Shown: in pieces, positions 5,392 to 61,810 of the stretch
Numbering within the stretch: the stretch's first letter is position 1
Layout of the letters: every line of letters starts with the position of its first letter
Origin: a virus
Taxonomy: Duplodnaviria > Heunggongvirae > Uroviricota > Caudoviricetes
Strand: one strand, 5' to 3'
DNA: 64,000 bases
IMG/VR virus record: IMGVR_UViG_3300010882_000010
The notes under the pieces: model-generated
The model's database searches: none
What the model was told of the DNA's origin: nothing
The model's input: the letters and a program-made list of their open reading frames with translations, nothing else
Program-made: the position numbers and the translations under genes

Positions 5392-5883
5392 ATGGGATTA
5401 GAAATTGAAAGGAAGTTTTTAGTAGACAGTATAAAATGGTGGAATGAAGATTGGATTCACAAGTTTCATCCACAAGTAATTAAACAAGGTTACGTTACTT
5501 TGGGTGAGATTTTAATTAGATTCAGAACAGTAGACAATAAAGGAGTTGTTGGTTACAAACAAACGAGGGAAGATAATTTGTTGTCAAGAAAAGAGTTTGA
5601 ACAAGAAATTTCTAATAAAGATGCAGAACACTGTTTAGAAAATTTTTGTCACTCTAAAATTGAAAAAAGAAGATACAGAATTTTTCAATGTGAGAAATGG
5701 TGGGAAGTAGATGTTTTTGACGGAGAAAATTCCGGTTTAATAATTGCAGAAATTGAATTAGAGTCAGAAGATGAAAAATTTGAAATTCCTTGGTTTGCTA
5801 AAAAAGAAGTAACAGGAGACAAAAGATATTATAATGAATATCTTGTAATAAATCCTTTTAAAAAATGGAAAGTTGTTACTTAA
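5392..5883 (+). CDS. Hypothetical protein.
   Basis: 163-aa ORF. Confidence 0.55.
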   Translation: MGLEIERKFLVDSIKWWNEDWIHKFHPQVIKQGYVTLGEILIRFRTVDNKGVVGYKQTREDNLLSRKEFEQEISNKDAEHCLENFCHSKIEKRRYRIFQCEKWWEVDVFDGENSGLIIAEIELESEDEKFEIPWFAKKEVTGDKRYYNEYLVINPFKKWKVVT

Positions 5884-5913
5884 TAAAAATAGCTAATAAC
5901 TTCAAAAAATTTT

Positions 5914-5930
5914 GGAATAAATAGTAAAAG
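5914..5930 (+). promoter_or_regulatory. Copy 1 of the conserved 17-nt upstream motif GGAATAAATAGTAAAAG.
   Basis: Exact 17-mer, 15 nt upstream of the tnpB GTG start. Confidence 0.5.
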
Positions 5931-5945
5931 GATATTATTAATAAA

Positions 5946-7301
5946 GTGAAAATATCAAACATAGAAAAGAATCTTCAAATAGCAAAAACTCTTAATCAAA
6001 CAAGATTAAAGAGGAAGAATCAGATTTGTAAAGTTTTTACTGTAAAAATTCAAGAAGATGCTTTAAAACCACAACAGAAAGAGTTTCTTCAAATGGTTTT
6101 CTTAGAAGCAAAGTGGTTGGTTAATCATATCCTTAATTGGAGTCAAGAAAGTGAAGAGAACAAGATATGGGAGTTTAAAGTAGATGGATTAAAGAAAGTT
6201 CAAAGAAAATTAAGAGATGGTTCTTTTGTAGAACAGGAATTGAAGTTTTTAAAAAGTCAAATAAAACAAGAAATTTGTGCAGGAATAGTTGAAGATATTA
6301 AATCATTATTAAAGAAAAAAGAAAAAGGACAAAAAGTTGGTAAGTTAAAGTTTAGAAAAGAAATTACATCAATTGATTTAGTACAATTTGGAATAACTTG
6401 GAAATATTATGATATTACACATGTTGGTATTCAAGGAATGAGTGGTAAAAGAGGAAAGAAATCTAAACTCAAAGTTAATGGCTTATCTCAAATCCCTTCA
6501 AATGCTGAATTCGCAAATGCAAAATTACTTAAAAAACCTTCAGGATACTATCTTGCTATAACAACCTATCTACCTAAAGAATCAAAACAAACTAAACAAT
6601 ACAAAGCCCCTATCGGAATTGATATGGGTTGCCAAACATCATTAACTTTATCAACAGGTGAAAAGATTAATGTTTCGATTAAAGAAAGTGAACGCTTAAA
6701 AAGATTACAGAGAAAACATGCTCGTCAGTATTTGATGAATCCTAAAGGTTCTAATAATCGAAAGAAAACTTTACATCTAATTAAAATTGAGTATGAAAAA
6801 CAAACCAACAAGAAAAACGATCTCGCAAACAAAGTAATTAAGGATCTTTTAGAACATGAAATTATTTTTATGCAAAATGAGAATCTTAAAGGATGGAAGA
6901 AAAAGAAAAGAACTAAAAAAGGAAAGAAACTTAATCATCTTTCTTTTGGTAGACAGATCCAATCTTCAATCCTTGGAAGAGTTAAATCAAAACTTAAAGG
7001 ACATGAAAGAGTAGTTGTAGTAAATCAATTTGAACCTACTTCAAAAACATGTTTACAATGTGGATTTAAGAATGAAGATTTAAAACTTTCAGATAGAAAT
7101 TTTAAGTGTTCTCAATGTGGTTTTGAAATGGATAGGGATATCCATGCAGCTCAAAACATGATTAAGTTTGGTAAGAAACAATTAATAGGGCAGGGACTGT
7201 CCAAATTAACGCCTATAGAGATTGAAGCTCTACATGAAAATTCTTTAAGAAATTTTAATGCAACTTTGGTCGGTGAAGTAGGAACTCAAATAAAAATTTG
7301 A
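5946..7301 (+). CDS. tnpB: TnpB/OrfB-family RuvC-like nuclease (IS200/IS605 accessory protein; an RNA-guided OMEGA nuclease family).
   Basis: RuvC-I APIGIDMGCQT, C4 zinc finger TCLQCG...CSQCG, and RuvC-III DRDIHAAQNM. GTG start 15 nt after a copy of the GGAATAAATAGTAAAAG motif. Confidence 0.85.
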   Translation: MKISNIEKNLQIAKTLNQTRLKRKNQICKVFTVKIQEDALKPQQKEFLQMVFLEAKWLVNHILNWSQESEENKIWEFKVDGLKKVQRKLRDGSFVEQELKFLKSQIKQEICAGIVEDIKSLLKKKEKGQKVGKLKFRKEITSIDLVQFGITWKYYDITHVGIQGMSGKRGKKSKLKVNGLSQIPSNAEFANAKLLKKPSGYYLAITTYLPKESKQTKQYKAPIGIDMGCQTSLTLSTGEKINVSIKESERLKRLQRKHARQYLMNPKGSNNRKKTLHLIKIEYEKQTNKKNDLANKVIKDLLEHEIIFMQNENLKGWKKKKRTKKGKKLNHLSFGRQIQSSILGRVKSKLKGHERVVVVNQFEPTSKTCLQCGFKNEDLKLSDRNFKCSQCGFEMDRDIHAAQNMIKFGKKQLIGQGLSKLTPIEIEALHENSLRNFNATLVGEVGTQIKI

Positions 7302-7367
7302 GAGTTCATAATGAACACTTAAGCACTTGCCCATACAATAAATGGGAGAACAAAAATTAGAAGTAAA

Positions 7368-26960: not shown

Positions 26961-27051
26961 AATTGTTAGTAACTTTTTTCTTTTTAAAGATGTTAGTAAA
27001 GATTTTTTCATTATTTTTGCTTTAGATTAAGAAAAATTAAAATTCAAGAAA
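26961..27051 (+). promoter_or_regulatory. Promoter element copy B.
   Basis: aattgttagtaacttttttc ... cattatttttg (TAtTTTTG at 27012-27019) upstream of the ATG at 27052. Confidence 0.55.
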
Positions 27052-39973: not shown

Positions 39974-40165
39974 ATGAACACAATTAGAATTTCCATGTCA
40001 ATAATGTCCTATCTTTCAGATGCACAAGCAATGATAGAATTAGGTATGCTTAAAGAAGCAAATGCCAGAATTAACTGTGCAAAATCAATTTTGTTAGATT
40101 TTCCGAATACTAATGAGGAAGTAGACAAAAGAGCAATTTACGAATCAATTAAAGAATGGTTGTAA
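39974..40165 (+). CDS. Hypothetical protein.
   Basis: 63-aa ORF. Confidence 0.4.
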   Translation: MNTIRISMSIMSYLSDAQAMIELGMLKEANARINCAKSILLDFPNTNEEVDKRAIYESIKEWL

Positions 40166-41430
40166 TGGAAGGAATAGTAATAATTAACAATGCACAGACA
40201 CAAGCAGGTAAGATTTTATTGGAACTTGAATGTGAACGAATAGTAAACCAAGAACCATTCATTACAAATCTTATTGCAATAGGTGGAAAGCCATATTATG
40301 TTGGCGGTTTTGTAAGGGACTATTTAATGGGTAGACCTAATAAAGATATTGACATCATAGTTGAAGGGCTTAATATTGAACAGATTAGAAAATCTTTGAC
40401 TTACTTTGGTAAAGTAGATGTTGTTGGAGAAAGTTTTGCGGTTGTAAAGTTTAAATCTTCAGATACCGGAATTGAGTATGATATTGCAGCACCAAGAATC
40501 GACAAGAAAGTTGCAGAAGGTCACAAAGGGTTTGAAGTTGTTTCAGGAAGTGAAGTAACTTTAGAAGAGGATCTTTTGCGTAGAGATTTCAGAATTAATA
40601 GTATTGCAGTTGACATCCAAACAGGGAAAATAGTGGATCCATTTAATGGAATTGCTGATATTGAAAAACGTAGAATTACAATGACAAATCCTCAAGCTTT
40701 TCTTGATGATCCATTGAGAATTTTAAGGGCTGTTCAATTTTCTATTCGGTTTGATTTTTCAATAACAGATGGAACTTTCCAATTGATGAGAGAACATATG
40801 AAGTTGATTAAAGAAATTCCTGGCGAGAGAATACATGAAGAGTTTGTTAAAATTGCTATGAAAAATGGCAGTGCTATTAAGACTTACCAATTATTAAGAC
40901 AGTTGAATTTTCATCAATACTTTAATAGTAGTATGCAATGGGTAATTAATTCAGTTCAAGATCTTAAGATTGGAAGATTAAAGACAGGAATTTACGAGTA
41001 CAATACAATGGGTGAGTTTTTTACTATCATTTGCGGTTGTCATTCTAAAGCACCGGAATTTTATCAAGAAGTTTTGAAGGGTGAAACAAGCACATATAAA
41101 CAGATGAAAGCCATTCTATTTTACAAGAAAAACAGGTTTGAACATCCGGGAATTTTGGCAAGTAAAATGGTGAAGATTACGAATGATAGTTTTAGTTTTA
41201 CTAAAAATGTTGTGCCAGATGATGAAGTAAGAAGGTACTTGCATGATATGAGAGATGAGATATTGCCGGCATACGTAAAGGATTTGAAAATTAATGGTAA
41301 TGATGCAATAGAAGCAGGATATGAAGGTAAAAGAATTGGAGATATCTTGCAACGACTTTACGAAGGGGTAATAATGGGATGGTTTCCAAATGAACGTGAA
41401 AAATTGTTAGAACTTTTAAAATTAAAGTAA
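40156..41430 (+). CDS. tRNA nucleotidyltransferase (CCA-adding enzyme / poly(A) polymerase family, class II).
   Basis: Head-domain signature GGKPYYVGGFVRDYLMGRPNKDIDIIVEG (GGxVRD ... DxD). Confidence 0.75.
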   Translation: MVVMEGIVIINNAQTQAGKILLELECERIVNQEPFITNLIAIGGKPYYVGGFVRDYLMGRPNKDIDIIVEGLNIEQIRKSLTYFGKVDVVGESFAVVKFKSSDTGIEYDIAAPRIDKKVAEGHKGFEVVSGSEVTLEEDLLRRDFRINSIAVDIQTGKIVDPFNGIADIEKRRITMTNPQAFLDDPLRILRAVQFSIRFDFSITDGTFQLMREHMKLIKEIPGERIHEEFVKIAMKNGSAIKTYQLLRQLNFHQYFNSSMQWVINSVQDLKIGRLKTGIYEYNTMGEFFTIICGCHSKAPEFYQEVLKGETSTYKQMKAILFYKKNRFEHPGILASKMVKITNDSFSFTKNVVPDDEVRRYLHDMRDEILPAYVKDLKINGNDAIEAGYEGKRIGDILQRLYEGVIMGWFPNEREKLLELLKLK

Positions 41431-55644: not shown

Positions 55645-55652
55645 AGATTACT

Positions 55653-56471
55653 ATGCCTCGAAAAATTATTGATACTTTAAGAAATTGTGAAAATTGTGAA
55701 ATTGAATTTTTTGGACATACAAGGTTTTGTTCATTAAGTTGTAAAGGAAAGTATCTTGCCAAACGTTCATTAGAAGTACGAAAAGAATTGGGTGTATCTA
55801 TCGGAGCTAAAGTAGGTAGAAAAAACAAGAATGCACTTGGAAATTGGAAATGTGAAATTTGTGAAGAAGTTTTTAGAACAAGAAGAGAATTACAAGATCA
55901 TAAAAAAGTTCATGGAACAAGCATAGAACGAAACAAAGAAAAATTAAAAAAGGAGTACACTTGTCAATATTGTGGTAGATTGAAAATAACTACAAAAGAA
56001 GGTGCAACTAATCACGAAAGAGTTTGTAAAGAAAATCCTAATAGACAAAAAACATCACAAGAAGGAAAATCATTAACAGTAGAACACAAACAAAATGTTT
56101 CTAGAGGAATGAAAAAAGCACACGAAGAAGGACGAGCTTGGAATATTGGAAAAAGTAGATGGAATAATGAACCTTCTTATCCTGAAAAATGGTTTATGCA
56201 AGTAATAGAAAATGAGTTTAATGATAAATTGTATGAAAGAGAGTATTCTTGTAGTATTTACTCAATTGATTTTGCATGGGTGCATAAAATGAAAGGTATT
56301 GAAATTGATGGTTCACAACATCAAAGATTTAAAGAATATCAAGAAAGAGATGAGAGAAAAATGAAAAAGTGTACTGAATTTGGATGGAAAATTTTAAGAA
56401 TATCGTGGAAAGAATGTTTTAATAATCCAAAACAATGGATTAAAATAGCAAAAGAATTCATTGAAAATTAA
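55653..56471 (+). CDS. Homing endonuclease-like protein: C2H2/zinc-ribbon motifs, a NUMOD3-like segment, and a C-terminal DUF559/Vsr-like PD-(D/E)xK domain.
   Basis: CENCEIEF..CSLSC; CEICEEVFRTRRELQDHKKVH; NUMOD3-like LTVEHKQNVSRGMKKAHEEGR; C-terminal YSIDFAWVHKMKGIEIDGSQHQ...ERDERKMKKCTEFGWKILRISWKE. Inserted inside the tRNA array. Confidence 0.65.
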   Translation: MPRKIIDTLRNCENCEIEFFGHTRFCSLSCKGKYLAKRSLEVRKELGVSIGAKVGRKNKNALGNWKCEICEEVFRTRRELQDHKKVHGTSIERNKEKLKKEYTCQYCGRLKITTKEGATNHERVCKENPNRQKTSQEGKSLTVEHKQNVSRGMKKAHEEGRAWNIGKSRWNNEPSYPEKWFMQVIENEFNDKLYEREYSCSIYSIDFAWVHKMKGIEIDGSQHQRFKEYQERDERKMKKCTEFGWKILRISWKECFNNPKQWIKIAKEFIEN

Positions 56472-56544: not shown

Positions 56545-56745
56545 CAAAAAAATCAACAAACTGGATCCGACGTAATACAGAAGAAAAAACGGGGAAACAG
56601 AATTGCAATTAGATTGCTAATTTTGCTAATCATTTAGCTCATCCACAGTAGTCAGTTTGTTTTTAAAGAAATAGTGCGGGATAGACTGGAGGTGGTTCCA
56701 GCTCGGTCTCAATAAAGTATCCAACTTACTGTTAATTAGTTGGTT

Positions 56746-56791
56746 ACCGGAAAATAGTTGGAATATTAGGGTTCGAATCCTTATTCCGGTA
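56746..56791 (+). ncRNA. tRNA-like minihelix (acceptor stem plus T arm only).
   Basis: accggaa-aatagttggaatat-taggg/ttcgaat/cctta-ttccggt-a, with a perfect 7-bp acceptor-like stem. Confidence 0.4.
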
Positions 56792-56843
56792 CTAAGCCGA
56801 ACTACGTGGGTTCGACTCCCACTCCCGCTACAAAGTTTGATAC

Positions 56844-57600: not shown

Positions 57601-57730
57601 TAGGGTGTAGCTCAGTGGTTAGAGCGCGTAAAATTCAACAACTAAAATCTGATAGTCAAAGGTTTTATGCAGCAAAAAATTAGAAATTGCATTCAGGAGC
57701 ACGATGTCGGTGGTTCGAATCCATCCACCC
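57601..57730 (+). tRNA. tRNA-like gene with a ~55-60 nt insertion in the anticodon region (candidate intron-containing or otherwise atypical tRNA).
   Basis: Canonical 5' half tagggtg-ta-gctc-agtggtta-gagc-g and 3' end ggtgg-ttcgaat-ccatc-cacccta (perfect 7-bp acceptor), but about 83 nt lie between the D stem and the T stem where about 22 are expected. Confidence 0.4.
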
Positions 57731-57817
57731 TAACTTTTTAAGTGCTTGTAGCAAAACGGCTTCGCCGCTGGCTTTTAACCAGCAGAAGGAGGTTCGACTC
57801 CTCCCAGGCACACTTAG

Positions 57818-58585: not shown

Positions 58586-58658
58586 GCCTCTGTAGTTCAA
58601 TTGGATAGAACAAGAGATTTCTAATCTCTAAATCGGGAATCATGCTCCTGTGGAGGTA
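58586..58658 (+). tRNA. tRNA-Arg (anticodon TCT).
   Basis: Acceptor gcctctg/tggaggt (3 G-U pairs), D arm gttc-aattggata-gaac, anticodon arm agaga-TTTCTAA-tctct, T arm cggga-atcatgc-tcctg. Confidence 0.65.
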
Positions 58659-58686
58659 CTAAATTTTAGTTTTCAAAAAATTACTT

Positions 58687-58703
58687 GGAATAGATAGAGA
58701 AAA
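58687..58703 (+). promoter_or_regulatory. Copy 9 of the motif, degenerate (GGAATAGATAGAGAAAA).
   Basis: Upstream of the HD-domain gene at 58707. Confidence 0.35.
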
Positions 58704-58706
58704 CAC

Positions 58707-59207
58707 TTGCCTATGGTAAGAAAATCTAATCAGGAAATAGTGGACCTAGCGGCACAACTCGCAAAAGAAATTCATGGTTCACAAGCTGATAAACAAGGTG
58801 TTAACTATTTTCAAGGTCATTTGACAGAAGTAGCAAGTCATTGTCGAGAATGGAAAGAAAAAATCATTGCATATTTGCATGATGTTAGTAAGTTCACAGA
58901 CATTTCAGAGTCTGAATTGGTAATGATTTTGCAAGATCGTTCAAATGGTAGATTAACAGACAAAATTGCAATAAAATTAAAGAAAGCACTTTGGCTTTTA
59001 GATCCAAAGAATTCAAAAACAAGAGAAGATTACATCGAGGGGATTAAAACTAATTATCTTGCAACAAAAGTAAAATTATGGGATTTGCAAGATAACATGA
59101 ACCTTGTTAAGATGAAAAATCCAAAACAGAAAGATTTTTTGAGAATACAAAAATACTATAAAGAGTATGCTAATTTGATTAATCTTTCTCATTACAAAGT
59201 ATTATAA
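58707..59207 (+). CDS. HD-domain phosphohydrolase-like protein.
   Basis: H ... HD arrangement: IHGSQADKQGVNYFQGHLTEVASH...IIAYLHDVSK. Preceded by a degenerate GGAATAGATAGAGAAAAC motif (58687-58703). Confidence 0.55.
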   Translation: MPMVRKSNQEIVDLAAQLAKEIHGSQADKQGVNYFQGHLTEVASHCREWKEKIIAYLHDVSKFTDISESELVMILQDRSNGRLTDKIAIKLKKALWLLDPKNSKTREDYIEGIKTNYLATKVKLWDLQDNMNLVKMKNPKQKDFLRIQKYYKEYANLINLSHYKVL

Positions 59208-59343
59208 TACAGGTCTTACCCAATGGATAGGGGGAATCGGTTACAACCCGATTAAAAATGTGCATTCGAATCGTCAAAGACCTGCTATTAAAAAAATCAA
59301 TAAAACTAAAACTTTTTTCATTCAAGGTATAATAATATTAAAT

Positions 59344-59473
59344 TGAAGGGTGGTGGAATTGGTATGCACCGGAGTCGAAAGGTTTTCTGAGATAAAAGAA
59401 AGTATGTAGTAATTATCGAATGGTAAAACCGGCGCTTAAAAAGCAATTGTAGGTTCAAGTCCTACCTCTTCAA
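59344..59473 (+). tRNA. tRNA-like gene with intact acceptor, D and T arms but a ~55 nt expanded central region.
   Basis: Acceptor tgaaggg/ctcttca, D arm ggtg-(g)aattggtatg-cacc, T arm gtagg-ttcaagt-cctac; total 130 nt. Confidence 0.35.
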
Positions 59474-60142
59474 CAAAATTAAAGGTTCCATACGGCAACT
59501 AATTCCAATTTGACTGTTACTCAAACTCCAACGGAACCTGAAGAAATCGCGACGGAAAAATGTGAAGTAAAAGGAGTCTCAAAAACCGTAATGGATATGA
59601 GATAGAGGTATGTGGTAGACCATTAATTGTAGGAAACTAGAATTAAAAAGTAATGAAAATTACAATCATAATAAGCAATTTTTCAAACAGTTACTTTAGT
59701 TGGTTCAAATCCAACACCGTCGCCAAAATACGTGATTATCCCGGTTCCCTTCGAGTTGAAAAATTCTAGAACACCGCGCTTAGGATAATCCTTTTTTACT
59801 GAATGGAATGTTAGTTTGGAAGCAGCTATTCATCTAAGGGGTGCGTAACAGCTCACCATTCAGAAGTCTCTAACAACCTCCATATGAATCAAGCCAGATT
59901 TTGTTCATTGTTAGAGTAAAAGCAAGAGTATGGATAGACAGAAATTGCAGGTGCAAAGTTGTGAGTAGTGGCGAGCGAAAACAGAGTGTCAGACATCAAG
60001 AACTTGAAAAGAACTGGCTGCGACAATCAAGTTCTTAATAATAGAGAGTGTTTAGAAATAGGCACTCTTTTTTCATTTTAACAGATTTTTAGCAAAACTT
60101 TTCCTAATTTTTGAGTTTAATTAAAAGCAAAAATTAAAATTA

Positions 60143-60159
60143 AGAATAGATAGTAAAAG
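60143..60159 (+). promoter_or_regulatory. Copy 10 of the motif (AGAATAGATAGTAAAAG).
   Basis: 8 nt upstream of the second TnpB-like gene (ATG at 60168). Confidence 0.45.
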
Positions 60160-60167
60160 TAATTAAC

Positions 60168-61406
60168 ATGATTTTATCAGAACAACACATCATTAAAAAA
60201 TCAAATCCTCTTTATCAAGAGTTAGATATGTTGTGTTTTTTATCTAAAAATCTCTACAATTTAGCTCTTTATTCTGTACGCCAACACTATTTTGAAACAG
60301 GAAAGTTTTTGGGAAAATTTGAGTTAATTAAGAACTTCACAAAGGAGAAACAGAAAGATTTTAAAAAATTAACGCATAGAGTAGCACAACAAATTATTTT
60401 TCAAGTAGAACAAGATATGCGTTCATTTTTTGCTCTTTTAAAGTTAAAACAAAAAGGACAATATCAAGGTAAAGTTAAATTACCTAAGTACAAAGAAAAA
60501 CAAGGTAGGAATGTAGCAATTTTTGAGATAATGGGTATTTCAGGAAAAGAATTAAAGAAAGGAATTATCAAATTTGGTGGAATGGAAATTAACAAAAAGT
60601 TTGTTCCGTTGGTTAAAAGAACCATCAAAACCAAACAATCTAAAGTTCAACAAGTTAGAATAATCCCTAAAAACGGATACTATACTGTAGAAGTGCTTTA
60701 CAAAGTAGAATCAAAACAAAAGAAAGAAGATAATCAAAAGTACTTATCAATTGATTTGGGCATAAACAACTTAGCAACTTTAACTTCTAATGTAACTAAA
60801 CCTATCATAGTAAACGGGAAACCTGTAAAGAGTATTAACCAATTTTACAATAAAACTAAAGCAAAACTCTCTTCACAATTAGAAACAGTAAACAAAACTA
60901 AATCATCAAAAAGAACTCAATCTTTATCCTTAAAGAGAAACAACAAAATTAAAGATTACTTTCACAAGACATCTAGATTCATAGTGAATCACGCAATTTC
61001 TAATGACCTTAATACCATAATTATCGGTAAAAATCAAGGCTGGAAACAAGACACAAATCTAGGTAGAGTTAATAATCAAAAGTTTGTTTCAATTCCGTTT
61101 AACAATTTAATTCAAATGATAAGCTACAAAGCTGAATTACAAGGAATTAAAGTTATTGTAAGAGAAGAAAGTTACACAAGCCAAGCAAGTTTCTTAGATA
61201 ATGATTTCATACCAAAGTATGGGGATAAGGAAATTAAGGAATTTAGCGGGAAAAGGATTAAGAGAGGTCTCTACCAGACTAAAAATGGTAGATTAATTAA
61301 TGCTGATGTTAACGGAAGTTTAAACATCATGAAAAAAGAAGTTCCAAATGCCTTAAATGGATATGGAATAGAGGTGTGCAGCACGCCATTAGTTGTAGGA
61401 TTCTAG
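60168..61406 (+). CDS. TnpB-like RuvC nuclease (IS200/IS605 OrfB family) with no zinc-finger cysteines.
   Basis: RuvC-I YLSIDLGINNLATL, RuvC-II VIVREESYTSQ, RuvC-III ADVNGSLNIMKK. There is no CxxC pair between the RuvC-II and RuvC-III motifs. Preceded by AGAATAGATAGTAAAAG (60143-60159). Confidence 0.75.
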   Translation: MILSEQHIIKKSNPLYQELDMLCFLSKNLYNLALYSVRQHYFETGKFLGKFELIKNFTKEKQKDFKKLTHRVAQQIIFQVEQDMRSFFALLKLKQKGQYQGKVKLPKYKEKQGRNVAIFEIMGISGKELKKGIIKFGGMEINKKFVPLVKRTIKTKQSKVQQVRIIPKNGYYTVEVLYKVESKQKKEDNQKYLSIDLGINNLATLTSNVTKPIIVNGKPVKSINQFYNKTKAKLSSQLETVNKTKSSKRTQSLSLKRNNKIKDYFHKTSRFIVNHAISNDLNTIIIGKNQGWKQDTNLGRVNNQKFVSIPFNNLIQMISYKAELQGIKVIVREESYTSQASFLDNDFIPKYGDKEIKEFSGKRIKRGLYQTKNGRLINADVNGSLNIMKKEVPNALNGYGIEVCSTPLVVGF

Positions 61407-61480
61407 AACTAAGAAAATTTCAGAAAATTAAAACTTTTTGAAAGTTAGTTGTAATAATAGCAATTAAAATTACTAAGAAG

Positions 61481-61810
61481 ATGAAGTATGTTAAAAAACC
61501 TATCCCGGTAGAATGTTACACTTGGGATGAAGTAATCCAAGATTTTCATGAAGAAAAGTTTGTTAAGAATGTTGTTATGCACACGAATGTAAAGGGTGAT
61601 ATCAATGGTGCTACTTTTGAAATTAACAATAGAACTATGAAATGGGATCCAATTAATGGAGTGATGAGAATTGGAACTTTAGAAGGAGAAATGACAATGC
61701 AACGTGCTGACATCCTGATAATTGGGGTTCGGGGGGAATGTTATCCCTGTAGAGGTGATATTTTTGAAGAGACATACGAATTGTATGTTGAAAATCACAA
61801 TTTCAATTAG
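61481..61810 (+). CDS. Hypothetical protein.
   Basis: 109-aa ORF. Confidence 0.5.
   Translation: MKYVKKPIPVECYTWDEVIQDFHEEKFVKNVVMHTNVKGDINGATFEINNRTMKWDPINGVMRIGTLEGEMTMQRADILIIGVRGECYPCRGDIFEETYELYVENHNFN

What the first reader, a model, noticed from the sequence alone, without database searches (positions are those of the whole stretch)
5946..7301. Two TnpB-like RuvC nucleases under phage promoter motifs; one lacks the zinc finger.
ORF 5946-7301 is a full TnpB with RuvC-I/II/III motifs and a C4 zinc finger. ORF 60168-61406 has the same RuvC triad (SIDLGINN / EESYTSQ / ADVNGSLNI) but no cysteines in the zinc-finger region. Neither has an adjacent TnpA.

Both start 8-15 nt after a copy of the GGAATA.ATAGTAAAAG motif, so they appear wired into the phage transcription programme. 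They do not look like passive IS passengers. TnpB proteins are RNA-guided nucleases whose guide RNA is encoded at the 3' end of the gene and just beyond it. The regions 7302-7367 and 61407-61480 are therefore candidate guide-RNA scaffolds. A phage-domesticated RNA-guided nuclease, for example for homing or competitor exclusion, would be notable.
Basis: partly seen in the sequence, partly recalled or inferred. Interest (0 to 1): 0.6.

Follow-up and report, generated by a model that had tools for sequence, protein, structure and literature searches.

The report
Two TnpB guide-RNA modules in phage
A large phage genome carries two transposon-derived RNA-guided DNA cutters (TnpB), each with an intact guide-RNA scaffold but no transposase and no detectable left transposon end; TnpB in phages is already known, and the unusual details are the phage start-of-gene motif in front of both genes and an extra guide-RNA-like copy nearby.

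Summary
Both ORFs are real TnpB genes with intact RuvC triads. TnpB1 (5946-7301) belongs to the "typical" DRDxN clade, has a C4 zinc finger, and has relatives next to Y1 TnpA. TnpB2 (60168-61406) belongs to the "derived" NADxN clade, whose relatives sit next to IS607-type serine recombinases. The missing zinc finger of TnpB2 is a trait of its whole clade (cyanobacteria, Chloroflexi, jumbo phages), and zinc-finger loss in large TnpB branches is already published.

Covariance models built only from relatives find a canonical omega-RNA scaffold at each 3' end: 7186-7309 (70.9 bits, E 3e-15) and 61335-61452 (51.1 bits, E 9e-7). They also find a third, gene-less scaffold at 59570-59682 (38.5 bits, E 1.6e-4).

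I found no TnpA in the 64 kb window, no recognisable left end, and no CRISPR array. The GGAATARATAGTAAAAG motif is real (8 copies against 0.25 expected). Every copy lies 8-48 nt before an ORF start, including both tnpB genes.

Best reading: these are immobilised TnpB-omega-RNA modules expressed like phage genes, probably acting as selfish RNA-guided homing or exclusion nucleases. Domestication is not shown. This is a new member of a known kind, of moderate interest.

The parts
5914..5930 (+). Class-1 phage upstream motif GGAATAAATAGTAAAAG, ending 15 nt before the TnpB1 start codon
   Evidence: 8 copies against 0.25 expected, each 8-48 nt before an ORF start.
5946..7301 (+). tnpB1: TnpB of the 'typical' DRDxN clade, with an intact RuvC triad and a C4 zinc finger
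   Evidence: Some relatives lie next to Y1 TnpA.
7186..7309 (+). Omega-RNA scaffold and right end of the TnpB1 element, ending ...TTTGAGAGTTCAT. Relatives end ...TAGTTCAC.
   Evidence: Model R2, built from 12 relatives only, scores 70.9 bits (E 3e-15) and is the only significant hit in the window. Family covariation: 94% of cells paired against 35-43% in the slid controls. Right-end comparison.
7310..7329 (+). Predicted guide segment of the TnpB1 omega-RNA: AATGAACACTTAAGCACTTG, the flank immediately 3' of the right end
   Evidence: Inferred from the right-end boundary. The sequence is unique in the window.
59306..59335 (+). Class-2 promoter-like motif (CTAAAACTTTTT-N-TATAAT) at the head of the ORF-less RNA-rich region
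   Evidence: Six copies with at most 1 mismatch in the 12-mer.
59570..59682 (+). Gene-less omega-RNA-like scaffold of the TnpB2 type, followed by a different flank (TTTTCAAACAGTTACTTTAG)
   Evidence: Model R3, trained without the window, scores 38.5 bits (E 1.6e-4) and is the second of only two hits with E<=1. It is 78% identical to the tnpB2 3' end over 60 nt. Stems P1 and P3 are kept through compensatory changes (and direct reading). It is enclosed by a tRNA-like acceptor stem plus T-arm, with fold z = -3.65.
60043..60076 (+). Terminator-like hairpin plus T-run that closes the RNA-rich region upstream of tnpB2
60143..60159 (+). Class-1 motif copy AGAATAGATAGTAAAAG (1 mismatch), ending 8 nt before the TnpB2 ATG
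60168..61406 (+). tnpB2: TnpB of the 'derived' NADxN clade, with an intact RuvC triad and no zinc-finger cysteines
   Evidence: The predicted structure (pLDDT 80) matches ISDra2 TnpB and AsCas12f (E about 1e-14). Relatives lie next to a serine-recombinase TnpA.
61335..61464 (+). Omega-RNA scaffold and right end of the TnpB2 element, with four hairpins P1-P4. The exact right-end boundary is uncertain: 61452 by the covariance model, 61464 by tail similarity to relatives (AATAATAGCAAT against AATAATAACTAT).
   Evidence: R1, built from 6 cyanobacterial sequences, scores 26.8 bits and is the top hit in the window. R3 scores 51.1 bits, E 9e-7. Fold z = -4.47. Family covariation: 92% paired against 41-51% in the slid controls. 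Right-end comparison. A class-2 promoter-like motif overlaps 61428-61457.
61465..61484 (+). Predicted guide segment of the TnpB2 omega-RNA (TAAAATTACTAAGAAGATGA). It overlaps the ribosome-binding region and ATG (61481) of the next gene. It would start at 61453 if the right end is at 61452.
   Evidence: Inferred from the right-end boundary. The sequence is unique in the window.

Best explanation
The window is part of a jumbo phage genome of at least 219 kb. It carries two unrelated TnpB-omega-RNA modules.

What each module is. TnpB1 derives from an IS200/IS605-type element and TnpB2 from an IS607-type element. Each keeps an intact nuclease gene and a canonical omega-RNA scaffold and right end. 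Neither has a transposase, and neither has a detectable left end. Where relatives carry a left end or a tnpA gene, each has a copy of a repeated phage upstream motif, spaced from the start codon as in native phage genes. These anatomical points are shown.

How it most likely works. These steps are inferred.
1. The motif drives transcription of tnpB through the scaffold and into the 16-20 nt flank.
2. TnpB processes the 3' part of its own mRNA into omega-RNA. This is known for TnpB (PMC10278001).
3. The ribonucleoprotein cuts DNA in which a TAM is directly followed by the flank sequence. That arrangement exists only in phage genomes lacking the insert.
4. In a mixed infection, a relative without the module is cut. 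It is then either repaired from the TnpB-bearing genome, which copies the module (homing), or it is lost (exclusion).

The modules therefore behave like the free-standing homing endonuclease genes of T4-type phages: selfish elements, with a possible side benefit to the carrier phage. A second TnpB2 copy (P0002, 88% identity) elsewhere in the genome and a gene-less scaffold at 59570-59682 show that this element family has been active or duplicated in this phage lineage.
For: - Family membership and catalytic residues.
- Omega-RNA scaffolds found by models trained only on relatives. Covariation in both families.
- Right ends that match relatives exactly where homology to flanks stops.
- No TnpA in the window. 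Relatives do have one: Resolvase next to P0005; Y1 TnpA upstream of L158, L166 and L124.
- Relatives carry conserved left-end hairpins of about 100-150 nt. nhmmer does not find these in the window. Only 59 nt separate the upstream gene from the TnpB1 start.
- The motif is phage-wide and always precedes an ORF.
- A terminator-like hairpin lies upstream of the tnpB2 motif, so tnpB2 needs its own start signal.
- Multiple copies per genome occur in other jumbo-phage contigs, and a paralogue lies on the same 219,030-bp contig.
- Homing by TnpB, and the concept of non-restorative homing between co-infecting phages, are described in PMC10690162 and PMC13565253.
Against: - There are no expression data, so the motif's promoter role rests on repetition and position only. 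The sigma-70 scans show no enrichment.
- No TnpB-less relative of this phage could be found. No empty site, no TAM, and no evidence of presence/absence polymorphism is therefore available.
- The left boundary of both elements is undefined.
- The exact right end of TnpB2 is uncertain (61452 against 61464). Its last hairpin overlaps a second phage promoter-like motif, so the 3' part of that scaffold could be partly remodelled.
- The fold energy of the TnpB1 3' region alone is not exceptional (z = -0.9).
- Nuclease activity of the zinc-finger-less clade has not, to my knowledge, been tested. The zinc-finger-equivalent segment is modelled with low confidence (residues 336-359).
Confidence: 0.55

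Rival explanations
1. Domesticated phage tools. TnpB2, and perhaps TnpB1, serves the phage rather than itself. It would be programmed by more than one guide RNA, including the gene-less scaffold at 59570-59682, which would be expressed from the ncRNA unit 59306-60076 and trimmed through its tRNA-like frame. Targets would be host DNA, a host defence locus, or competing phages.
For: - Phage-type upstream motif on both genes.
- No detectable left end and no TnpA.
- A gene-less scaffold with a different 3' flank matches the family model significantly. It keeps its stems through compensatory changes.
- That scaffold lies between a promoter-like motif and a terminator-like hairpin, inside a tRNA-like acceptor/T-arm frame.
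- Relatives in alternative-code jumbo phages carry recoded in-frame stops inside tnpB, which suggests long residence.
Against: - No target is known.
- The only exact 20-nt match to the extra guide in IMG/VR is inside an ORF of an unrelated 58-kb contig and is compatible with chance.
- The compensatory differences may predate decay of a second IS copy.
- The two full-length guides are simply the adjacent flanks, as in any IS.
- Known domesticated TnpBs are nuclease-dead (TldR, sigma-TnpB in PMC10705468 and PMC10691335). These two are not.
Confidence: 0.15
2. Passive or decaying IS relics. The modules are leftovers of insertions whose left end and tnpA were lost. They are transcribed only because they lie in a unidirectional phage operon, and they have no current activity.
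For: - No detectable left end, no TnpA.
- A clearly truncated third copy exists.
- TnpB2 has a lower G-over-C skew than other phage genes (0.07 against 0.26 +/- 0.10), compatible with a relatively recent foreign origin.
Against: - Both ORFs are full length, with all catalytic residues and, in TnpB1, all four zinc-finger cysteines.
- Both scaffolds score as full-length matches to family models.
- Each start codon is spaced from the motif as in native genes.
- The TnpB1 and TnpB2 proteins are identical in the three (TnpB1) and two (TnpB2) source collections that record them.
Confidence: 0.2
3. Still-mobile non-autonomous IS. Left ends exist but are too divergent to recognise, and a TnpA encoded elsewhere (the rest of the phage genome or the host) mobilises the elements in trans.
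For: - Most TnpB loci lack tnpA, yet IS1341-type elements show some mobility (PMC10691335).
- An 88% paralogue lies elsewhere in the genome.
- Only 64 of at least 219 kb was inspected.
Against: - Only 8-15 nt lie between the phage motif and the start codons. That leaves no room for the 100-150 nt left ends seen in relatives, unless the left end contains the phage motif itself.
- nhmmer with the relatives' left-end profile finds nothing near 5800-5945.
Confidence: 0.1

Closest known systems
ISDra2-type IS200/IS605 TnpB with omega/reRNA ('typical' DRDxN clade; PDB 8bf8, 8exa, 8h1j)
   Same: TnpB1 aligns to ISDra2 TnpB over residues 124-419. It has the DRD motif, the C4 zinc finger, a scaffold overlapping the 3' end of the gene, and a right end ending ...AGTTCA(T/C). 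Some relatives carry a Y1 TnpA.
   Different: No tnpA and no detectable left-end hairpins. A phage motif replaces the left end. The module resides in a jumbo phage. About 49% identity to the nearest relatives outside this phage's own assemblies.
IS607-associated 'derived' (NADxN) TnpB clade of cyanobacteria, Chloroflexi and jumbo phages
   Same: TnpB2 shares 42-62% identity with this clade. It shares the invariant D/E/D, the degenerate zinc-finger region, the conserved C-terminal YGIEVCSTP peptide, and the four-hairpin scaffold ending in ...AACTAT-like sequence. Close relatives sit behind a Resolvase-type TnpA.
   Different: No tnpA. None of the roughly 150-nt left-end hairpin seen in other jumbo-phage copies. 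The tail sequence diverges (AGCAAT or AGTTGT in place of AACTAT). An additional gene-less scaffold lies nearby.
IS1341-type stand-alone TnpB elements
   Same: A single tnpB gene with its omega-RNA and no transposase.
   Different: IS1341-type elements keep both IS ends. Here no left end is detectable, and a host-genome (phage) regulatory motif abuts the start codon.
Free-standing homing endonuclease genes of T4-like phages (Seg and Mob; SegB in the T4 tRNA region)
   Same: A nuclease gene inserted between conserved phage genes and expressed from phage signals. The predicted effect is localized marker exclusion or homing in mixed infection. tnpB2 lies beside the tRNA cluster and two genes upstream of thyA. 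This is a functional analogy only (PMC13565253).
   Different: Target recognition would be RNA-guided (TAM plus about 16-20 nt) rather than protein-based. No homology.
TldR and sigma-TnpB (domesticated, nuclease-dead TnpB with separate or arrayed omega-RNAs)
   Same: Immobilised TnpB. There is possibly an extra omega-RNA gene apart from the one overlapping tnpB.
   Different: The RuvC triad is intact here. No associated regulator genes. The guide targets are unknown.
Phage-encoded type V effectors (Cas12j/CasPhi, Cas12f-like)
   Same: Same fold (Foldseek E about 1e-14 to AsCas12f). Huge-phage context.
   Different: No CRISPR array anywhere in the window. The guide is fixed by the flank.

Membership tests
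TnpB (OMEGA RNA-guided nuclease family) | Sequence match to the curated family model above its cutoff | tested here: met
   NF040570: 130.5 bits (TnpB1) and 188.4 bits (TnpB2) against a cutoff of 100. Pfam PF01385 and PF07282 both above the gathering score.
TnpB (OMEGA RNA-guided nuclease family) | RuvC D-E-D catalytic triad present | tested here: met
   TnpB1: D226 and D396/D398 invariant, E312 nearly invariant, aligned to ISDra2 TnpB. TnpB2: D196/E334/D380 invariant in 16 relatives. Predicted fold matches TnpB and Cas12f.
TnpB (OMEGA RNA-guided nuclease family) | C4 zinc finger between RuvC-II and RuvC-III (common, but not universal according to PMC10691335) | tested here: inconclusive
   TnpB1 meets it (C369, C372, C388, C391). 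TnpB2 does not: 0 Cys, which is clade-wide. The literature states that the zinc finger is lost in large TnpB branches, so this is not disqualifying.
TnpB (OMEGA RNA-guided nuclease family) | Structured omega/reRNA scaffold overlapping the 3' end of the gene and ending at the element's right end | tested here: met
   R2: 70.9 bits at 7186-7309. R3: 51.1 bits at 61335-61452. Covariation.
TnpB (OMEGA RNA-guided nuclease family) | RNA-guided, TAM-dependent DNA cleavage | not testable with these tools
   Needs biochemistry or a plasmid-interference assay. The TAM could not be read because the left boundary is unknown.
Autonomous IS200/IS605 element | Adjacent Y1 (HUH) TnpA | tested here: not met
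   No Pfam Y1_Tnp on genes within 6 kb. tblastx with six TnpA-bearing upstream regions of relatives finds nothing in the window.
Autonomous IS200/IS605 element | Left end with subterminal hairpins | tested here: not met
   Relatives share TTCTAC..GTAGAAAA..ATGATATC left-end motifs. nhmmer with that profile finds no hit near 5800-5945 (best E 0.16, elsewhere). The test has limited sensitivity.
IS607 element | Adjacent serine-recombinase TnpA | tested here: not met
   Present beside relatives (PF00239 next to P0005; L003, L013, L014, L092). Absent in the window.
Type V CRISPR-Cas (Cas12) | CRISPR array near the effector gene | tested here: not met
   No array-like repeats in the window.
TldR / nuclease-dead TnpB repressors | Inactivated RuvC site | tested here: not met
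   Triads intact.
pro-Fanzor / Fanzor | DPG motif in RuvC-I and a relocated glutamate 6 residues before CxxC (PMC10711439) | tested here: not met
   TnpB2 has SIDLG, a canonical EESYTS and no CxxC. TnpB1 has GIDMG.
IStron / RAGATH-18 IS607 reRNA | Group I intron 5' of tnpB, or a RAGATH-18 motif 3' of it | tested here: not met
   No Rfam hit at gathering score in the window and none at E<=5 in 58600-61600.

The most novel reading that the evidence does not exclude
TnpB2 is a nuclease-active TnpB that the phage programmes with more than one guide. Besides the RNA overlapping its own gene, it would use a separate, gene-less omega-RNA at 59570-59700. That RNA would be transcribed from a dedicated ncRNA unit and released by tRNA-processing enzymes through its acceptor/T-arm frame, and it would direct the nuclease to a second target in the host or a rival phage. 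This would be a natural multi-guide, tRNA-processed TnpB system: an intermediate between a fixed-guide transposon nuclease and a CRISPR-like programmable effector, recruited by a virus.
Probability: 0.1. Interest if true: 0.8.

Novelty: new member of a known kind. Interest (0 to 1): 0.4.

Why it matters
If the modules act as inferred, this phage is a compact natural case of RNA-guided homing or exclusion between co-infecting viruses. That role has been proposed for OMEGA systems but not demonstrated in phages. It also offers two small, AT-rich TnpB/omega-RNA pairs, one of them without a zinc finger, with defined scaffolds that can be tested as editors. The replacement of the transposon's left end by a host-genome promoter motif marks a concrete step on the path from mobile element to resident gene. 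If the gene-less scaffold is functional, it would show how extra guides can be added.

Tried and rejected
- **Close relatives of the phage, to find an empty site.** Megablast against phages found nothing. IMG/VR scans with the ThyA and DHFR neighbours gave only distant hits or none. The ORFan downstream of tnpB1 has no homologue among 5.8 billion proteins except itself. No empty site, TAM or left-end boundary could be obtained.
- **The P0002 paralogue locus.** Its DNA was not retrievable.
- **Left-end detection.** A hairpin at 5823-5844 resembles part of one relative's left end. The left-end profile from the relatives does not support it.
- **RIIIr-4 clade (zinc-finger-less, D-to-H in RuvC-III).** Rejected, because TnpB2 keeps NADVN.
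- **Other families.** pro-Fanzor, IStron, RAGATH-18, Cas12 and TldR were all rejected (see the membership tests).
- **Second targets for the three guides.** None within the window. One exact 20-mer match for the extra guide exists in IMG/VR, inside an ORF of an unrelated contig. I judged it compatible with chance.
- **MAFFT plus RNAalifold on the raw 3' ends.** This gave no structure because of register shifts. I solved it with hand-defined seed structures and covariance models.
- **rRNA similarity of other parts of 59200-60050.** Only 59807-59856 is significant. blastn against E. coli found nothing.
Full report
**Context.** The window is AT-rich (about 31% GC) and is transcribed almost entirely from the + strand, with strong G-over-C skew. 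It encodes phage-type accessory functions (RNase H, tRNA nucleotidyltransferase, DHFR, ThyA) and at least 11 tRNA genes. The same sequence occurs on a 160-kb ENA contig and, by the protein records, on a 219,030-bp JGI contig. Relatives of its TnpB2 lie on IMG/VR contigs of 120-380 kb. It has no close relative among deposited phages. I treat it as part of a jumbo phage genome.

**The observation.** Both ORFs exist as described.
- Both pass the curated NCBIfam threshold for RNA-guided TnpB, and both Pfam domains.
- TnpB1 aligns to ISDra2 TnpB and ISFba1 TnpB. D226 and D396/D398 are invariant and E312 nearly invariant, and its four zinc-finger cysteines are invariant, among 16 relatives.
- TnpB2 keeps D196/E334/D380, invariant in 16 relatives.
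- The TnpB2 AlphaFold model (pLDDT 80) matches ISDra2 TnpB and AsCas12f at Foldseek E about 1e-14. Only the zinc-finger-equivalent segment and one loop are modelled with low confidence.
- In the classification of PMC10691335, TnpB1 (DRDIH) belongs to the "typical" clade and TnpB2 (NADVN) to the "derived" clade.

**The zinc finger.** TnpB2 has no cysteine between RuvC-II and RuvC-III. The same holds across the clade: 48 of 71 loci have none, and none of the rest showed a C4 set. The single count of 4 was a motif-search artefact in L086. The clade includes multicopy elements in Microcoleus, Okeania and Ktedonobacter. [quoted passage not shown] So this part of the finding is correct but ordinary.

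**Guide-RNA scaffolds, TnpB1.**
- Relatives on 77 viral loci share three features: a hairpin with a GGAAC/GGGAC loop, a long-range stem, and a terminal hairpin [stem]CTTTAG[stem'] followed by TAGTTCAC. Similarity between copies stops after that point.
- A covariance model built from 12 relatives, without the window, gives one significant hit in 64 kb: 7186-7309, 70.9 bits, E 3e-15, ending exactly at ...GAGTTCAT.
- Across 64 family matches, 94% of cells pair, against 35-43% when partners are slid. There are 406 double-sided changes against 50-105. That alignment is model-fitted, which favours the structure.
- The guide is therefore predicted to begin at 7310.

**Guide-RNA scaffolds, TnpB2.**
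- The family shares four hairpins around the conserved strings AAAG..TCCC..GGGATAGAGG..., and a tail ending AACTAT at the element end.
- A model from six cyanobacterial sequences alone ranks the tnpB2 3' end first in the window (26.8 bits). It ranks a second site, 59570-59653, next.
- A family-wide model trained without the window gives only two hits with E<=1: 61335-61452 (51.1 bits, E 9e-7) and 59570-59682 (38.5 bits, E 1.6e-4).
- Covariation: 92% paired against 41-51% in the slid controls. The tnpB2 3' region also folds better than shuffles (z = -4.47).
- The exact right end is uncertain. The model ends at 61452. The tail AATAATAGCAAT (to 61464) matches AATAATAACTAT of the closest phage relatives L199 and L201.
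- A second phage motif class (CTAAAACTTTTT-N12-TAATAA, six copies) overlaps 61428-61457. This stretch may therefore also serve as the promoter of the next gene.

**What is missing.**
- No Y1 or serine-recombinase TnpA is detectable in the window. Relatives have them: Resolvase directly upstream of P0005, serine-recombinase ORFs in L003, L013, L014 and L092, and Y1 TnpA in L158, L166 and L124.
- Relatives without tnpA carry 100-150 nt left ends with conserved hairpins that show compensatory changes.
- In the window only 59 nt separate the upstream CYTH gene from the TnpB1 start. An nhmmer profile of the relatives' left end finds nothing there.
- Upstream of tnpB2 there is a terminator-like hairpin (60043-60076) and then about 90 nt of AT-rich sequence.
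- No CRISPR array, group I intron or RAGATH-18 motif is present.

**The motif.** GGAATARATAGTAAAAG occurs 8 times against 0.25 expected, always on the + strand and preceded by an A-rich stretch. Each copy lies 8-48 nt before an ORF start. Because it precedes six unrelated genes and two unrelated TnpB families, it belongs to the phage, not to the IS elements. The two tnpB genes are placed behind it as native genes are. It remains positional evidence only, and sigma-70 consensus scans are uninformative.

**The third scaffold.**
- Region 59570-59682 has no coding capacity beyond the last 15 codons of a tnpB2-like gene. It nevertheless matches the whole scaffold model.
- Relative to the full copy, it keeps P1 (TTCC/GGAA changed to TCTC/GAGA) and P3 (TTAGTT/AACTAA changed to TTAATT/AATTAA) by compensatory changes. 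It has its own P4 hairpin and is followed by a different flank.
- It is enclosed by a 7-bp stem (GCGACGG/CCGTCGC) and a T-arm-like hairpin, with fold z = -3.65.
- It lies in an ORF-less, GC-richer region bounded by a class-2 promoter-like motif (59306) and the terminator-like hairpin.
- It is either the stump of a decayed copy inserted in a tRNA-like gene or an expressed extra omega-RNA. The data do not decide between these.

**Interpretation.** The best-supported reading is two immobilised TnpB-omega-RNA modules that are expressed as phage genes. They most likely persist as RNA-guided homing or exclusion elements in mixed infections. This would be analogous to the Seg/Mob endonucleases of T4 (PMC13565253) and consistent with the demonstrated homing role of TnpB (PMC10690162). 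Rival readings are true domestication with extra guides, inert relics, and trans-mobilised IS. They cannot be excluded, because no TnpB-less relative, no TAM and no expression data are available.

**Novelty.** TnpB is already known to be frequent in phages (PMC12607003), and a cyanophage tnpB is induced during infection (bioRxiv 10.64898/2026.02.14.705889). This is therefore a new member of a known kind, with two details worth following: the apparent left-end-to-promoter replacement and the gene-less scaffold.

Noticed in passing
window 59797-59868 (core 59807-59856): A hairpin-closed segment aligns to the E. coli 23S rRNA region of about nt 1056-1104, the L11/L10-binding GTPase-associated centre. 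Smith-Waterman score is 51 against 23.2 +/- 2.8 for shuffles. No Rfam family matches. It may be an rRNA-domain mimic encoded by the phage.
   Followed up: partly
window 59552-59723: The gene-less omega-RNA-like scaffold sits inside a tRNA-like frame: a 7-bp acceptor-like stem GCGACGG/CCGTCGC plus the T-arm GTTGGTTCAAATCCAAC. The fold z-score is -3.65. The phage also encodes a tRNA nucleotidyltransferase (40156-41430).
   Followed up: partly
window 56675-56831 and 57601-57734; also 59345-59476: Two tRNA genes carry long internal insertions: 81 nt, and 48 nt (Rfam tRNA hit of 133 nt). A tRNA-Tyr-like 3' half at 59439-59466 is identical over 28 nt to Acinetobacter phage tRNA-Tyr, but no complete tRNA is called there.
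   Followed up: no
window, six sites: 1543, 10245, 44278, 54497, 59306, 61428: A second repeated upstream motif, CTAAAACTTTTT-N12-TA(T/A)AAT-like. Four copies precede ORFs and two precede RNA-gene regions. A third class, AATTGTTAGTAAC...AGTATTTTTGC, has six copies at 26961, 28690, 35523, 39527, 54742 and 54966. These probably reflect several promoter classes.
   Followed up: partly
L201/L202 3001-4233 (ENA contigs of 133-188 kb; relatives occur on contigs up to 414 kb): TnpB2 relatives in these jumbo-phage contigs contain in-frame stop codons that the protein database reads as glutamine. This points to an alternative genetic code with recoded tnpB genes. There, too, tnpB lies two genes upstream of thyA, as in the window.
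   Followed up: no
outside the window (219,030-bp JGI contig): P0002, a 414-aa paralogue 88% identical to TnpB2, is recorded, like P0001, on a JGI contig of 219,030 bp, presumably the same contig. Its DNA could not be retrieved.
   Followed up: partly
L203 1009-1028 (IMGVR_UViG_3300019886_000006): This is the only exact 20-nt match in IMG/VR to the flank of the gene-less scaffold (TTTTCAAACAGTTACTTTAG). It lies inside an ORF of an unrelated 58-kb viral contig. It could be chance.
   Followed up: partly
window 55650-56470 (L009 1486-2304): A 272-aa ORF with DUF559/MTES_1575 endonuclease-like domains sits inside the tRNA cluster. It may be another selfish nuclease gene.
   Followed up: no
window 7303-7316: The right end of the TnpB1 element and the start of its flank form a perfect palindrome (GTTCAT A ATGAAC) across the predicted boundary. 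I read this directly.
   Followed up: no
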